Assembly (NCBI RefSeq): GCF_009914755.1
Contig: NC_060931.1
Direction: 5' to 3' (one strand)
Source of the DNA: the human T2T-CHM13v2.0 reference genome, Homo sapiens
DNA length: 64,000 nucleotides
A model generated the notes under the pieces. It did not search any database. It was not told where the DNA came from and worked only from the letters and a program-made list of their open reading frames with translations. This document shows positions 7,886 to 18,384 of the stretch, one piece after another. The number at the start of each line of letters is the position of its first letter. Position 1 is the stretch's first letter. The translations under genes were made by a program, and so were the position numbers.

Positions 7886-8590
7886 AAATTCAAAAATGTA
7901 CTCAATTAATCTTTAAGATTATTCTGCAAGATTGACTCCTTCTTGCAACTCTGAGCATTGGTTTGAACTGAATTCTCTGGCAGTAAGTCCTTTGCTATGT
8001 AAGGCTCATAGCTCTTCACATTCTTCACTGTACATGTCACCAATTCAGACCTCTTCAAAAAGATCCAAAAAAAAAAAGGATCCAAGAAGGGTTTTTCTGT
8101 TGGTGATGTTGGTGTTGGTGTTGTTATTGTGTTGCTTTGCAGTCATCACTTCATGAAACTTTGGAAATCAGCAATAAATTGTCCCTTTCTCATAGAAGAA
8201 CTTTCACTTAATAATGTGGAGAAAATGATTCCAACAATTAAAAACCAATTTAGACAACGTGGGAACAAGACAGGATCTTGTCAGGAAACAACTGAGATAT
8301 GACTGCAGTTTACTTCACTTTCACCCTACAGACTCAAGGGCAATATCCATGTTTTACTGGTGTACACAACCAGATTTGCTTCAGTGGAGTTTCAATTCAA
8401 ATAATGAATTTTGGGTGAAATCAATTGAAAGTTATTTATGGCAAATATTTAAATTTGGGGAGTTTAAATAGTGAGGGAGAGCTTGAAGTTAAACATCTCC
8501 TGAATTCTTAATTATTCCAAAATATAATGATGAATTGAAAACTGCCTAGTAAGTCAGGAAGCTAAACAAGCCTAAAAGAAGTCACTGCAA

Positions 8591-9922
8591 TTTTTTTTTT
8601 TTTACGAAATTTTCCTGGACTAAATTCTTTTTCTTTTCGTTTTTTATTATTATTATTGTACTCTAAGTTTTACAGTACATGTGCACAACGTGCAGGTTTG
8701 TTACATAAGTATACATATGCCATGTTGGTGTGCTGCACCCATTAACTCATCATTTAGCATTAAGTATATCACCTAATGCCATCCCTCCCCCCTTCCCCCA
8801 CCCCACATCAGTCTCCGGTGTGTGATGTTCCCCTTCCTGTGTCCATGTGTTCTCATTCTTCAATTCCCACCTCTAAGTGAGAACATGCGGTGTTTGGTTT
8901 TTTGTCCTTGCAATAGTTTGCTGAGAATGATGGTTTCCAGCTTCATCCATGTCCCTACAAAGGACATGAACTCATCATTTTTTATGGCTGCATAGTATTC
9001 CATGGTGTATATGTGCCACATTTTCTTAAAGGACCAGTCTATCATTGCTGGACATTTGGGTTCGTTCCAAGTTTTGCTATTGTGAATAGTGCTGCAATAA
9101 ACATACGTGTGCATGTGTCTTTATAGCAGCATGATTTATAATACTTTGGGTATATACCCAGTAATGGGATGGCTGGGTCAAATGGCATTTCTAGTTCTAG
9201 ATACCTGAGGAGTCGCCACATTGACTTCCACAATGGTTGAACTAGTTTACAGTCCCACCAACAGTGTAAAAGGGTTCCTATTTCTCCACATCCTCTCCAG
9301 CACCTGTTGTTTCCTGACTTTTTAATGATCGCCATTCTAACTGGTGTGAGATGGTATCTCATTGTGGTTTTGATTTGCATTTCTCTGATGGCCAGTGATG
9401 ATGAGCATTTTTTCATGTGTTTTTTGGCTGCATAAATGCCTTCTTTTGAGAAGTGTCTGTTCATATCCTTCGCCCACTTTTTGACGGGGTTGTTTGTTTT
9501 TTTCTTGTAAATTTGTTTGAGTTCATTGTGGATTCTGGATATTAGCCCTTTGTCAGATGAGTAGGTTGCAAAAATTTTCTCCCATTCTGTAGGTTGCCTG
9601 TTCACTCTGATGGTAGTTTCTTTTGCTGTGCAGAAGCTCTTTAGTTTAATTAGATCCCATTTGTCAATTTTGGCTTTTGTTGCCATTGCTTTTGGTGTTT
9701 TAGACATGAAGTCCTTGCCCATGCCTATTTCCTGAATGGTATTGCCTATGTTTTCTTTTAGGATTTTTATGGTTTTAGGTCTAGCATGTAAGTCTTTAAT
9801 CCATCTTGAATTAATTTTTTATAAGGTGTAAGGAAGGGATCCAGTTTCAGCTTTCTACATATGGCTAGCCAGTTTTCCCAGTGCCATTTATTAAATAGGG
9901 AATCCTTTCCCCATTGCCTGTT
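8591..9922 (-). mobile_element. 3' half (~1.3 kb) of an L1PA4-like element, with a double poly(A) tail
   Basis: ORF2 C-terminus (ORF 9042-9722) and 3'UTR. A-rich tail at ~8628-8657, then ~24 nt of unique sequence, then T13 at 8591-8603. L1 homology stops at ...gcaatggggaaag. Confidence 0.95.
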
Positions 9923-10779
9923 GGCCACCATAGCTTCAAGTCAACACTGCAAGGTCTACTGGGTATTGGAGCATGCATTAAACACCTTTGGTCTTTCTTC
10001 TATTTGTGTTTTCACTGGGTAATGAGGTTCTCACGGGCACCACCTTTGGCTCCACTGGATGTTCATCCCTTCCTTCCTGGGTTTCTTATTTTGCAAATGG
10101 TGCCATAATCTGTCCAGTTGTCCATGCCAGAAGCCTTGACTCTTTCTTCCAATAAATAATAAAAGAGTTGTGTATTATAAAGGCTTCATATCTCTCTGGA
10201 GCATCCACTTTTTTTTTTCCTTATCTCTACTTGAGTTATGGTCACCATCATTTCTGGACTGGATTGTTGCAACTGCTTCTTTGGATTGAACCTGTTTCAA
10301 GGCTTGCTTCTCTCAAATTACCTTTCACACTGCAACCATAATGCTATATATTTATAAGACAAATATAATTGTGAGATGATGTCAGTGGGAATAGCAGAAT
10401 AATGCCCTCCAAAAATCTCCACAAAAATAGAGAACACTGTCAAAAAATAGTCAGAATCAACTCTTTGTTTTTTGTTTTTGTTTTTATTTTTGTTTTTCAG
10501 AACTCTGTGTATCAACCCAACGCTTGAAGTAATATAGAGAGTGTTCATTCAAGAAAAATAGTAAGAATAGTGAGTTCTGTCATGTTTCAACCTGCCCCTT
10601 TCTCATTACCCCCACTCTGCAGTAACCTTGAAAACCAAAAAACTAAAATCACTATGAAAACTAGCAGCCTGGAAGCCACTGAAGGCAGCTGAATGGAGTT
10701 AGAGCCCCTTAAAAGTCCCATTTCTAAAACAATGTCATTATTTGACCTGTCTAGTGGTGCCCTGGGAGATCCCACTTAC

Positions 10780-16200: not shown

Positions 16201-18202
16201 TGAATGACTACTGGGTACATAACAAAATGAAGGCAGAAATAAAGATGTTCTTTGAAACCAATGAGAACAAAGACACAACATACCAGAATCTCTGGGACAC
16301 ATTCAAAGCACTGTGTAGAGGGAAATTTATAGCACTAAATGCCCACAAGAGAAAGGAGGAAAGATCTAAAATTGACACCCTAACATCACAATTAAAAGAA
16401 CTAGAGAAGCAAGAGCAAACACATTCAAAAGCTAGCAGAAGACAAGAAATAACTAAGATCATAGCAGAACTGAAGGAAATAGAGACACAAAAAACCCTTC
16501 AAAAAAATCAATGAATCCAGGAGCTGGTTTTTTGAAAAGATCAAGAAAATGATAGACCACTAGCAAGACTAATAAAGAAGAAAAAAGAGAAGAATCAAAT
16601 AGATGCAATAAAAAATGATAAAGGGGATATCACCACCGATCTCACAGAAACACAAACTACCATCAGAGAATACTACAAACACCTCTACGCAAATAAACTA
16701 GAAAATCTAGAAGAAATGGATAAATTCCTCGACACATACACTCTCCCAAGACTAAACCAGGAAGAAGTTGAATCTCTGAATAGACCAATAACAGGCTCTG
16801 AAATTGAGGCAATAATTAATAGCTTACCAACCAAAAAAAAGTCCAGGACCAGATGGATTCACAGCCGAATTCTACCAGAGGTACAAGGAGGAGCTGGTAC
16901 CATTCCTTCTGAAACTATTTCAATCAATAGAAAAAGAAGGAATCCTCCCTAACTCATTTTTTGAGGCCAGCATCATCCTGATGCCAAAGCCTGGCAGAGA
17001 CACAACAAAAAAAGGGAATTTTAGACCAATATCCTTGAACATTGATGCAAAAATCCTCAATAAAATACTGGCAAACCGAATCCAGCAGCACATCAAAAAG
17101 CTTATCCACCATGATCAAGTGGGCTTCATCCCCGGGGTGCAAGGCTGGTTCAACATATGAAAATCAATAAACATAATCCAGCATATAAACAGAACCAAAG
17201 ACAAAAACCACATGATTATCTCAATAGATGCAGAAAAGGCCTTTGACAAAATTCAACAGCCCTTCATACTAAAAACTCTCAATAATTTATGTATTGATGG
17301 GACGTATCTCAAAATAATAAGAGCTACCTATGACAAACCCACAGCCAATATCATACTGAATGGGCAAAAACTGGAAGCATTCCCTTTGAAAACTGGCACA
17401 AGAGAGGAATGCCCTCTCTCACCACTCCTATTCAACATGGTGTTAGAAGTTCTGGTCAGGGCAATCAGGCAGGAGAAGGAAATAAAGGGTATTCAATTAG
17501 GAAAAGAGGAAGTCAAATTGTCCCTGTTTGCAGATGACATGATTGTATACTTAGAAAACCCCGTCTTCTCAGCCCAAAATCTCCTTAAGCTGATAGGCAA
17601 CTTCAGCACTCTCAGCATACAAAATCAATGAGCAAAAATCACAAGCATTGTTATACACCAATAACAGACAAACAGAGAGCAAAATCATGAGTGAACTCCC
17701 ATTCACAATTGCTTCAAAGAGAATAAAATACCTAGGAATCCAACTTACAAGGGATGTGAAGGACCTCTTCAAGGAGAACTACAAACCACTGCTCAATGAA
17801 ATAAAAGAGGATACAAACAAATGGAAGAACAATCCATGTTCATGGGTAGGAAGAATCAATATCATGAAAATGTCCATACTGCCCAAGGTAATTTATAGAT
17901 TCAATGCCATCCCCACCATGACTTTCTTCACAGAATTGGAAAAAACTACTTTAAAGTTCATATGGAACCAAAAAAGAGCCTGCATCGCCAAGTCAATCCT
18001 AAGCCAAAAGAACAAAGCTGGAGGCACCACGCTACCTGACTTCAAACTATACTACAAGGCTGCAGTAACCAAAACAGCATGGTACTGGTACCAAAACAGA
18101 GATATAGACCAATGGAACAGAACAGAGCCCTCAGAAATAATTCCACGTATATACAACTATCTGATCTTTGACAAACCTGACAAAAACAAGCAATGGGGAA
18201 AG
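13283..18202 (+). mobile_element. 5' part (~4.9 kb) of an L1PA4-like element: 5'UTR, disrupted ORF1, disrupted ORF2 EN/RT; no 3' end
   Basis: Starts GGGGGAGGAGCCA. ORFs 15543-16514 (endonuclease), 17212-17631 ([11 protein letters not shown]) and 17648-18229. Ends abruptly at aacaagcaatggggaaag. Confidence 0.96.
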
Positions 18203-18384
18203 TCACCGCAATTTTTAAATTCACAGTAACAAGCCTCCCCTCCCCATGTTTTGGAATTTTGGGATGTTAAATCCACTTGTTCCTTTTGTTTTGCAATTTC
18301 TCATCATATCTTTACCTGTGCACCCCCTCCTTTTACATACACAATGTTTTGTATCATCTTATTGAGAATGATATACTCTATAAT

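What the first reader, a model, noticed from the sequence alone, without database searches (positions are those of the whole stretch)
8579..18216. One ~9.6 kb twin-primed L1 insertion carrying a ~3.4 kb apparent 5' transduction
Seen in sequence: (1) The minus-strand L1 3' half (8591-9922) and the plus-strand L1 5' part (13283-18202) break at the same ORF2 position, aaca(a/g)gcaatggggaaag, with a 13-18 nt overlap, so together they make one full-length element. (2) The whole block is flanked by a 17-bp direct repeat, aagtcactgcaattttt (8579-8595) and aagtcaccgcaattttt (18200-18216), differing by one CpG-type change. (3) The right copy reads TT|AAAAA on the minus strand, the canonical L1 endonuclease site, and shares an AAG microhomology with the L1 end. 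Established: twin priming gives TSD, inverted 5' segment, 3' segment, poly(A), TSD, normally with the two segments adjacent. Inference: the second cDNA ran through the whole L1 5' end and a further ~3.4 kb, so the template RNA began at a promoter upstream of the source L1, and 9923-13282 is foreign DNA copied from another locus. Repeat annotation would likely split this into two unrelated L1s.
Basis: partly seen in the sequence, partly recalled or inferred. Interest (0 to 1): 0.9.

Follow-up and report, generated by a model that had tools for sequence, protein, structure and literature searches.

The report
Twin-primed L1 carrying spliced upstream DNA
A single old L1 jumping-gene insertion near GIMAP2 was copied in two opposed pieces and dragged along 3.4 kb of upstream RNA stitched from two sites 111 kb apart, a rare but already described kind of event.

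Summary
A 17-bp direct repeat (16/17) brackets 8579-18216. The minus-strand L1 3' part and the plus-strand L1 5' part break at the same ORF2 18-mer. The target reads TTT|AAAAA.

The 3.36 kb between the halves is foreign and composite.
- 9917-12876 copies chr7:151660599-151663539 (P1; 96.4% substitution identity). Homology starts at the L1 junction, with a 6-nt microhomology, and ends where P1 continues with GT.
- 12876-13282 copies chr7:151774486 onward (P3), preceded there by AG. P3 runs straight into a contiguous full-length L1 with the identical flank/L1 junction.

P1 lies 111 kb upstream of P3, on the same strand as that L1. At P3 an old interspersed repeat runs unbroken across both ends of the copied 47-nt piece, so P3 is ancestral and the window junctions are derived.

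Both L1 halves carry similar private divergence (2.0% and 2.5%) and the same subfamily-diagnostic pattern. The P3 L1 is their nearest relative among 21 copies.

Best reading: one twin-primed insertion of a spliced P1-exon/P3/L1 chimeric RNA, with an 8.3-kb second cDNA.

Spliced L1 5' transductions are in print (17 cases, 2026). This inverted, 3.4-kb case with a candidate source in cis looks unlisted. No outgroup empty site could be checked.

The parts
8579..8595 (.). Left copy of the 17-bp target-site duplication (AAGTCACTGCAATTTTT)
   Evidence: only two matches in the window at <=2 mismatches, 0.02 expected by chance.
8596..8645 (-). 3' tail of the insertion, read on the minus strand: A6, then 36 nt of non-L1 sequence (A-rich at first, then a unique core), then A8 that runs on into the A5 of the repeat. 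Either a degenerate poly(A) or a short 3' transduction.
   Evidence: The 35-nt core is unique in the genome at <=3 mismatches. It is absent from the two donor regions at <=6 substitutions.
8646..9922 (-). L1 3' part (ORF2 C-terminal part plus 3' UTR): the first cDNA, primed on poly(A)
   Evidence: 90-94% identity over its full length to 30 contiguous L1 copies. 28 private substitutions in 1131 columns.
9917..9922 (.). 6-nt microhomology (CCTGTT) where the two cDNA ends were joined
   Evidence: these bases belong both to the L1 18-mer and to the donor locus P1, which reads ...TTTCAAT CCTGTTGGCCACC.
9923..12875 (+). Distal transduced segment, copied from P1 (chr7:151660605-151663538). It carries an old EIF2A processed pseudogene in antisense (about 11490-12817, annotated EIF2AP3) and an old L1 3'-end fragment (about 10780-11069).
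   Evidence: 2829 of 2934 aligned bases identical, fairly even along its length, longest identical run 172 bp. Pseudogene mapped to the chr3 parent exons at 69-90% identity in both copies.
12876..12922 (+). 47-nt piece copied from P3 (chr7:151774486-151774532). It is joined to the P1 piece at a GT..AG-compatible point.
   Evidence: P1 continues ...AAACAG|GTTCCT and P3 reads ...CAGCAAG|GCAC. 47 of 49 bases are identical to P3. At P3 an old interspersed repeat runs across both ends of this piece.
12923..13282 (+). Proximal transduced flank, homologous to the DNA directly upstream of the P3 L1 (chr7:151775023-151775423). 490 bp present in P3 between this and the 47-nt piece are missing here. Contains a 20-bp tandem duplication and a (TTCC/TTTC)n tract.
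   Evidence: One HSP runs from 13060 across the junction into the L1 (to 15107). About 7% substitution difference by hand count outside the microsatellite.
13283..18202 (+). L1 5' part (complete 5' UTR, ORF1, ORF2 up to the break): the second cDNA, primed by the cut top strand
   Evidence: colinear with full-length L1s from their first bases. 51 private substitutions in 2606 columns. Private 54-bp T-rich/(TTTA)n insert at 15108-15161.
18200..18216 (.). Right copy of the target-site duplication (AAGTCACCGCAATTTTT). Its first 3 bases (AAG) overlap the L1 end, marking the internal priming microhomology. On the minus strand the nick site is TTT|AAAAA.

Best explanation
Window 8579-18216 is one L1 retrotransposition event made by twin priming from a chimeric RNA.

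1. Template (inferred). A + strand transcript of the GIMAP cluster ran through P1 (chr7:151.6606-151.6635 Mb). It was spliced from a weak donor (CAG|GTTCCT) across about 111 kb to a cryptic acceptor (...CAGCAAG|G) about 940 bp upstream of a then-young full-length L1 at P3 (chr7:151.7754 Mb). It continued through that L1 to its poly(A) site.
2. First strand (shown by anatomy). L1 endonuclease nicked TTT|AAAAA. The first cDNA was primed on the poly(A) and reached ORF2.
3. Second strand. The second nick lay 17 nt away. The freed top-strand 3' end (...CTT) annealed to AAG in ORF2, 12-18 nt downstream of where the first cDNA stopped. It primed a second cDNA of about 8.3 kb that copied the rest of the L1 to its first base and then 3.36 kb of the 5' leader.
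4. Joining. The two cDNA ends were joined at a 6-nt microhomology.

The outcome is TSD, inverted (L1 5' part plus leader), L1 3' part, poly(A), TSD. EIF2AP3 is a passive second-hand copy of an older pseudogene that sits in P1.
For: - TSD, poly(A) and endonuclease site: a 17-bp repeat matching at 16/17, far beyond chance, plus tail and nick site.
- Matching breaks: both halves break at the same ORF2 18-mer. There is a 3-nt primer microhomology and a 6-nt joining microhomology.
- Foreign origin of the middle: both flanks are single copy. The middle has paralogues whose homology ends at the L1 junctions.
- Direction of copying: at P3 an old interspersed repeat runs across both ends of the 47-nt piece. 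All 39 non-self hits cross its right end. 26 of 39 start at least 10 nt before its left end. P3 is therefore ancestral and the window junctions are derived. P1's continuation past the donor is single copy.
- Source: P3's flank runs into a contiguous full-length L1 at the identical junction. That L1 is sister to the window's L1 in a 22-sequence, 3964-column tree (support 0.92). It shares the most window-derived states (13; the next copy has 9). It also shows the same pattern at 32 subfamily-diagnostic sites, including the same 3 minority states.
- One event: private substitutions are 51/2606 (2.0%) in the 5' part and 28/1131 (2.5%) in the 3' part. U versus P1 differs at 105/2934 sites, or about 1.8% per lineage.
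- RNA joining: P1 and P3 lie on the same strand as the L1, in transcript order, 110,947 bp apart. The join has GT..AG at one of its four possible placements.
- Precedent: spliced exon/L1 5' transductions with long introns and cryptic acceptors just upstream of the L1 are described in PMC13174262 (sections 13-14 and passages read).
Against: - No outgroup empty site was seen.
- The splice sites are weak. The join also has a 3-nt microhomology (AGG), so GT..AG would arise by chance in roughly 1-2% of such joins. A template switch cannot be excluded.
- The second discontinuity, 490 bp of P3 missing after the 47-nt piece, is not GT..AG. It must be a separate deletion or template jump.
- The P3 side is more diverged than a strict clock predicts. 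P3-only substitutions number 130 against 79 window-only in 3737 columns, with only 12 shared. The flank differs by about 7%, against 3.6% for U/P1. The asymmetry is strongest in the segment used to pick the reference copies (53 v 25) and weaker elsewhere (77 v 54). P3 could be a close relative of the true source rather than the source itself.
- The P3 L1 now lacks its last ~115 bp and tail, so neither its own TSD nor the 36-nt tail could be matched.
- Polarising U/P1 differences gives inconsistent answers: 15 v 7 with P3b as third copy, 10 v 20 with the EIF2A parent as outgroup.
- No transcript evidence for the proposed splice was available.
Confidence: 0.8

Rival explanations
1. Same chimeric insertion, but P1 and P3 were joined without cis-splicing. 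The reverse transcriptase switched from the unspliced P3/L1 RNA to a separate P1 transcript at a 3-nt microhomology, or the two RNAs were trans-spliced or ligated.
For: The join has a 3-nt microhomology AGG, and both splice sites are weak. The neighbouring 490-bp gap is non-canonical, which shows that some non-splicing discontinuity did occur in this lineage. PMC13174262 lists template switching, trans-splicing and ligation as routes to L1 chimeras.
Against: It needs two separate RNAs that happen to come from the same strand, the same cluster and the right order. One placement is exactly GT..AG. Template switches described for L1 chimeras usually occur at the template's 5' end (recalled), not 400-900 nt upstream of the L1 inside an unspliced flank.
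Confidence: 0.2
2. A conventional full-length L1 insertion with a 5' transduction landed here first. A later DNA inversion flipped the leader plus the L1 5' part.
For: It gives the same final order of segments. Inversions with short duplications at the breakpoints exist.
Against: One inversion breakpoint would have to fall exactly at the boundary between the target-site duplication and the insert, with the AAG overlap. The other would have to create the 12-18 nt L1 duplication and the 6-nt microhomology. All of these are the standard by-products of twin priming.
Confidence: 0.06
3. The block was assembled at the DNA level: segmental duplication or replication-based template switching among GIMAP-cluster paralogues, or two independent L1 insertions around resident DNA. 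The 17-bp repeat would then be fortuitous.
For: The GIMAP cluster holds other paralogous scraps of the same sequences. One is a 597-bp P1-like piece next to a window-like L1 fragment at chr7:151781655-151782796. There are also signs of recent gene conversion. DNA-level exchange therefore does occur here.
Against: The 17-bp repeat lies exactly at both ends, with a poly(A) tail and a TT|AAAA site. Both L1 parts complement each other to the nucleotide. Homology to the donors ends at the L1 junctions. Both flanks are single copy, so no larger duplication block includes them.
Confidence: 0.04

Closest known systems
Twin priming of L1 (Ostertag and Kazazian 2001; recalled, not read here). It is described as a mechanism in PMC13174262 (passages read).
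   Same: TSD around the whole block. Poly(A) at one end. An inverted 5'-ward L1 segment next to the other TSD copy. L1 coordinates of the two segments meet with a small overlap. Microhomology at the internal priming site and at the junction of the two cDNAs.
   Different: The two L1 segments are not adjacent. The inverted cDNA did not stop inside the L1: it ran through base 1 and a further 3.36 kb, about 8.3 kb in all. The element is therefore complete in content rather than 5' truncated.
L1 5' transductions of spliced mRNA/lncRNA exons: 17 insertions in hg38, PMC13174262, Cell Genomics 2026 (sections 13-14 read; supplements searched).
   Same: Non-L1 RNA sequence in sense orientation fused 5' of a (near) full-length L1, inside the TSD. 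A join at a splice donor. A very long intron (their median 48 kb, up to 220 kb; here 111 kb). In their RAP1GDS1 case, a cryptic acceptor just upstream of an L1 identified as the source.
   Different: Here the leader is much longer (3.36 kb, against 153 bp in their lead example). It is mostly one long unspliced stretch that includes an antisense pseudogene. The insertion is twin-primed and so split and inverted. A candidate source L1 still exists in cis. GIMAP and EIF2A do not occur in the 4 supplement files held, and no coordinate string for this region does either. The coordinate strings rest on an hg38 offset I recalled, and the held files may be cut.
SVA 5' transductions such as the MAST2-exon SVA_F1 family (recalled)
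   Same: An upstream exon spliced onto a retroelement RNA and mobilised with it.
   Different: A different element, mobilised in trans. That family amplified into many copies. Here the genome search found no sibling copy carrying the P1/P3 join.
Processed pseudogene (EIF2AP3 as annotated)
   Same: Intronless copy of EIF2A exons, mapped to the parent exons on chr3.
   Different: It is not an independent retrocopy. It is 69-90% identical to the parent but 96-97% identical to the copy in P1. It was carried here in antisense, as a passenger inside the L1 leader.

Membership tests
Twin-primed L1 insertion | Target-site duplication flanking the whole structure | tested here: met
   17-bp repeat matching at 16/17, at 8579-8595 and 18200-18216. 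Two matches against 0.02 expected.
Twin-primed L1 insertion | Poly(A) tail next to one TSD copy, and an L1 endonuclease-type nick site | tested here: met
   A13 on the minus strand abuts the left repeat. The target reads TTT|AAAAA. The tail is interrupted by 36 non-L1 nt.
Twin-primed L1 insertion | Two L1 segments in opposite orientation whose L1 coordinates meet, with a small overlap or gap. The inverted one is the 5'-ward part and lies next to the other TSD copy. | tested here: met
   The 18-mer is shared by both ends. The order and orientation are as predicted.
Twin-primed L1 insertion | Microhomology between the cut target end and the internal priming site, and at the cDNA-cDNA junction | tested here: met
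   AAG/CTT at 18200-18202. CCTGTT at 9917-9922 is shared with the donor locus.
Twin-primed L1 insertion | The two L1 segments abut each other | tested here: not met
   They are separated by 3.36 kb. This is explained by the second cDNA running beyond L1 base 1 into a 5' leader.
Twin-primed L1 insertion | Both segments derive from one element (same subfamily, same age) | tested here: met
   At 32 sites that separate two clades of reference copies, the majority-group state occurs at 16/19 sites in the 5' part and 11/13 in the 3' part. Private substitutions are 2.0% v 2.5%. No formal RepeatMasker/Dfam call was available.
L1 5' transduction | Non-L1 sequence directly 5' of L1 base 1, inside the TSD, in the sense orientation | tested here: met
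   9923-13282 abuts the L1 start at 13283 on the same strand.
L1 5' transduction | A parental locus with the same sequence directly upstream of a full-length L1 | tested here: met
   At chr7:151775023-151775423 the flank runs into a contiguous L1 with the identical junction. That L1 is sister to the window's. This holds only for the proximal 0.4 kb; the distal 2.95 kb maps 111 kb further upstream.
L1 5' transduction | Empty site in species or haplotypes that lack the insertion | not testable with these tools
   No primate genomes were on hand. Both flanks are single copy in this genome.
Spliced exon/L1 chimeric insertion (PMC13174262) | The leader maps to separated genomic segments, colinear and on the strand of the L1 | tested here: met
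   P1 (+) lies 110,947 bp upstream of P3 (+), and the L1 is on +.
Spliced exon/L1 chimeric insertion (PMC13174262) | The join coincides with a splice donor and acceptor | tested here: inconclusive
   GT and AG are present at one of four possible placements, but both sites are weak and there is a 3-nt microhomology. The second gap, 490 bp, is not canonical.
Spliced exon/L1 chimeric insertion (PMC13174262) | The leader corresponds to exons of a known transcript | not testable with these tools

The most novel reading that the evidence does not exclude
A long spliced read-through transcript of the GIMAP cluster, ending in the P3 L1, may have been a recurrent template.

Besides the 9.6-kb twin-primed copy, a second patch sits at the 3' end of the source L1 itself (chr7:151781655-151782796). 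It replaces the source's last ~115 bp and tail. It consists of a 597-bp P1-derived piece followed, in transcript order and orientation, by a 553-bp L1 ORF2 piece.

This could be a cDNA or RNA-templated repair patch: an endonuclease-independent capture made from the nascent chimeric RNA at its own transcription site.

If so, the locus would record both an unusually processive (8.3 kb) second-strand cDNA and RNA-templated repair in cis.
Probability: 0.12. Interest if true: 0.65.

Novelty: new variant of a known kind. Interest (0 to 1): 0.5.

Why it matters
- It joins two known L1 side-reactions in a single event. The result shows that the second (top-strand) cDNA in twin priming can be at least 8.3 kb long and can read past the L1 5' end into a leader.
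- A repeat annotator would report two unrelated L1 fragments, unique DNA and a pseudogene. Surveys of 5' transduction and of full-length L1 content would miss cases like this.
- The leader maps to two sites 111 kb apart, and a candidate source L1 survives in cis. The published catalogue mostly could not find the source for its cases. This locus therefore allows a direct test of cis-splicing into an L1 as the route to such chimeras.
- It explains why EIF2AP3 exists: it is a passenger copy of an older pseudogene.
- No effect on GIMAP2, 2.4 kb downstream, was examined.

Tried and rejected
- Paralogous empty site. The left flank (7905-8600) matched only itself. The right flank (18195-19850) matched only itself, apart from an old repeat within query positions 168-411. 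No within-genome empty site exists.
- Tail as 3' transduction. The 35-nt core is unique in the genome at <=3 mismatches. It is absent from the fetched donor regions at <=6 substitutions. This is not decisive, because the P3 L1 has lost its 3' end.
- The source L1's own TSD. The 16-mer before the L1 start recurs only at the homologous place in P3.
- Does the EIF2A pseudogene cross the P1 donor? That would have proved P1 ancestral. It ends about 60 bp before the donor in both copies, so the test is uninformative.
- The 490-bp gap as a second intron. Rejected: its ends read GC...GT/TG.
- APOBEC-type editing as the reason for P3's long branch. P3-only changes are balanced, with G>A 20+2 and C>T 19+3. 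Rejected.
- Large gene-conversion tract between U and P1. The longest identical run is 172 bp, as expected for 3.6% divergence. No sign of one.
- Full-length reference L1s for the 5' third of the element. Subfamily and age tests therefore cover window 15520-18202 and 8759-9922 only. For the 5' 2.2 kb I have only the search table: best non-self identity 92%, with P3 at 89.6%.
- Literature. The phrase search found 0 papers, but it cannot match a prime sign. One search found 90 papers with 3 of the 4 terms; 15 were listed and one was read.

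
Full report
**What is in the sequence**

On the + strand the block reads as follows.
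- 17-bp repeat, 8579-8595.
- T8.
- 36 nt of non-L1 sequence.
- T6.
- The reverse complement of an L1 3' end and ORF2 C-terminal part, 8646-9922.
- 3,360 bp of non-L1 DNA, 9923-13282, called U below.
- An L1 from its very first bases through the 5' UTR, ORF1 and most of ORF2, 13283-18202.
- The repeat again, 18200-18216, with one C/T difference.

The 17-mer occurs nowhere else in the window at up to 2 mismatches; 0.02 matches are expected by chance. The ORF2 18-mer AACA(A/G)GCAATGGGGAAAG ends the + part and begins the - part.

Read on the minus strand, the pre-insertion target is ...TGAATTT|AAAAATTGCGGTGACTT|TCTTTTAGG. This gives a TT|AAAA-type first nick and a second nick 17 nt away. The freed 3' end ...CTT can pair with the AAG that ends the + strand L1 part. 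The only correction is that L1 homology of the 3' part starts near 8646; 8596-8645 is tail.

**The middle segment is foreign and composite**

The genome that holds the window could be searched. Both flanks of the block are single copy. U is not.

- U 1-2954 (window 9917-12876) matches chr7:151660599-151663539 on the + strand. This locus is called P1. 2829 of 2934 aligned bases are identical and the differences are spread evenly. The longest identical run is 172 bp.
- On the left, the match begins 6 nt inside what also reads as L1 (CCTGTT). P1 has these 6 nt natively and then continues leftward with unrelated sequence. This is a microhomology junction exactly where the two cDNAs of a twin-primed insertion should meet.
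- On the right, the match ends at ...AAACAG. There P1 continues GTTCCT..., which is single copy.
- From that base on, the window matches chr7:151774486-151774532, called P3. 47 of 49 bases are identical, and in P3 the piece is preceded by ...CAGCAAG.
- The window then skips 490 bp of P3 and resumes at chr7:151775023. From there it is colinear with P3 through the remaining flank and straight into an L1. A single alignment crosses the flank/L1 junction, and the junction is at the identical base.
- The P3 L1 is contiguous across the ORF2 point where the window's L1 is split. It extends to within about 115 bp of the L1 3' end. It is interrupted only by a 218-bp inverted L1 3'-end fragment with its own 15-bp duplication.

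**Direction of copying**

The P3 sequence around the 47-nt piece belongs to an old interspersed repeat. Of 39 non-self genomic hits to chr7:151774390-151774650, all cross the right end of the piece. 26 begin at least 10 nt before its left end. P3 is therefore an undisturbed copy of that repeat, and both window junctions of the 47-nt piece are derived. P1 and P3 were never adjacent DNA at this join.

The EIF2A pseudogene annotated in U (my mapping: 11490-12817, minus strand) is 69-90% identical to the parent exons on chr3. It is present in the same form in P1. It is thus an old pseudogene of P1 that was copied along, not a separate retrocopy.

**How P1 and P3 were joined**

P1 and P3 lie on the strand of the L1, in transcript order, 110,947 bp apart. 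The join has a 3-nt ambiguity (AGG). One of its four placements gives an intron that starts GT and ends AG. By my estimate a random join would do so in about 1-2% of cases.

Both sites are weak: the donor is CAG|GTTCCT, and the acceptor has a poor pyrimidine tract. I read this as cis-splicing of a long + strand transcript into a cryptic acceptor upstream of the L1. I hold that part at about 0.6.

A reverse-transcriptase template switch or trans-splicing is the main alternative. The 490-bp gap is not GT..AG. It needs a separate deletion or template jump, and I cannot date it.

**One element, one event**

I compared both halves with 29 contiguous L1 copies retrieved with window 17000-18202. These span the break point.

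| Test | 5' part | 3' part |
|---|---|---|
| Identity to the same reference copies | 91-94% | 90-94% |
| Columns where the window alone departs from the reference majority | 51 of 2606 (2.0%) | 28 of 1131 (2.5%) |
| Majority-group state at the 32 sites that separate two reference clades | 16 of 19 | 11 of 13 |

The P3 L1 shows the same pattern at the 32 diagnostic sites, including the same three minority states.

In a concatenated tree (22 copies, 3964 columns) the window's L1 and the P3 L1 are sisters, with support 0.92 and a stem of 0.003. P3 shares more window-derived states than any other copy: 13, against 9 for the next. The short stem fits a source that was young, and so probably coding-competent, when it was copied.

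U and P1 differ at 3.6% of sites, or about 1.8% per lineage. That is in line with the window's L1. With recalled rates this points to roughly 10-16 Myr, an L1PA3-L1PA5 era. I could not obtain a formal subfamily call.

**What does not fit neatly**

- The P3 side is longer-branched. There are 130 P3-only against 79 window-only changes, and about 7% flank divergence by hand count. MAFFT gave about 10%, but that includes microsatellite columns.
- The excess is greatest in the stretch that served as the search query (53 v 25). Reference choice favours the window there. Elsewhere the excess is modest (77 v 54).
- There is no editing-type bias.
- P3 may therefore be the source with a somewhat faster or disturbed history, or a close relative of a lost source.
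- Polarising the U/P1 differences gave conflicting splits: 15 v 7 with a third copy, 10 v 20 with the distant parent gene. I draw nothing from these beyond the pairwise figure.
- The P3 L1's missing 3' end prevents matching its TSD or the 36-nt tail.
- The 5' 2.2 kb of the L1 could not be put through the reference-based tests, because further genome letters were not available.

**Rivals**

- A later inversion of an ordinary 5'-transduced insertion would need a breakpoint exactly at the TSD/insert boundary. It would also have to mimic all the twin-priming by-products.
- DNA-level assembly, or two independent L1s, does not explain the exact terminal repeat with poly(A) and nick site. It also does not explain the nucleotide-level complementarity of the halves, or the single-copy flanks.

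**Comparison with what is known**

Twin priming is textbook for L1 (recalled; also described in PMC13174262).

I read sections 13-14 and passages of PMC13174262 (Cell Genomics 2026).
- It reports 17 hg38 L1 insertions with 5'-transduced mRNA or lncRNA sequence, mostly in sense and mostly on near-full-length L1s.
- Six of them end at splice donors.
- Introns are unusually long (median 48 kb).
- One source L1 was identified behind a cryptic acceptor (RAP1GDS1).
- For other cases no source was found.

The present case belongs to that kind. It differs in three ways. It is twin-primed, so the leader and the L1 5' part are inverted relative to the 3' part. Its leader is 3.36 kb long. A candidate source survives in cis.

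GIMAP and EIF2A do not occur in the paper's four held supplement files. The coordinate strings I derived for this region from a recalled hg38 offset do not occur either. The files may be truncated. I found no paper describing the combination, but my searches were limited.

**Verdict**

It is a new variant of a known kind. Interest is moderate: it is a clean natural example that bears on the processivity of second-strand synthesis and on cis-splicing into L1. It is not a new principle.

Noticed in passing
L013:1655-2796 (chr7:151781655-151782796), directly after the truncated 3' end of the P3 L1: A 597-bp piece homologous to U 1605-2200 (93.3% to the window, 94.6% to P1) is joined to a 553-bp L1 ORF2 piece, in the same order and orientation as in the chimeric RNA. 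There is no poly(A) or TSD, and the joins have 1-3 nt microhomologies. It replaces the last ~115 bp and tail of the P3 L1. Origin unexplained: a repair patch or endonuclease-independent capture is possible.
   Followed up: partly
window 17078-17628 versus chr7:151782244-151782796: These two L1 pieces are 98% identical. They share 12 derived states; 9 are window-only (6 of them clustered in 17550-17616) and no substitutions are fragment-only. Neighbouring sequence is 6-7% diverged. This looks like a recent gene-conversion tract of about 0.5 kb between L1 copies 74 kb apart. The direction is unknown.
   Followed up: partly
window 15108-15161: A private 54-bp T15 plus (TTTA)n-rich insert near the end of ORF1 in the window's L1. 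It is absent from the P3 L1, and all 40 scored genomic copies break their alignment there.
   Followed up: partly
L013:914-1131 (chr7:151780914-151781131): A 218-bp inverted L1 3'-end fragment sits inside the P3 L1, flanked by a 15-bp duplication of L1 sequence. It is only 83% identical to the window's L1 3' end, which is odd for something inserted into a younger element.
   Followed up: no
window 11490-12817 (annotated EIF2AP3 11743-12828): Homology to the EIF2A parent gene extends about 250 bp further 3' (into the 3' UTR) than the annotated pseudogene span. The pseudogene is interrupted by an old L1 ORF2 scrap at about 12310-12420. Near-identical copies exist in P1 and, in part, at chr7:151781680-151782181.
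   Followed up: partly
window 9283-9922 versus window 45897 onward: The ORF2 C-terminal part of the inverted L1 half is closest (97.3%) to the other large L1 in the same window. That is closer than to any of the 29 genome-wide reference copies. Possible local gene conversion or close kinship.
   Followed up: no
window 12975-13013: A 20-bp tandem duplication (gacattaaggttgaaaaa-type unit) in the transduced flank. It is single in P3.
   Followed up: no
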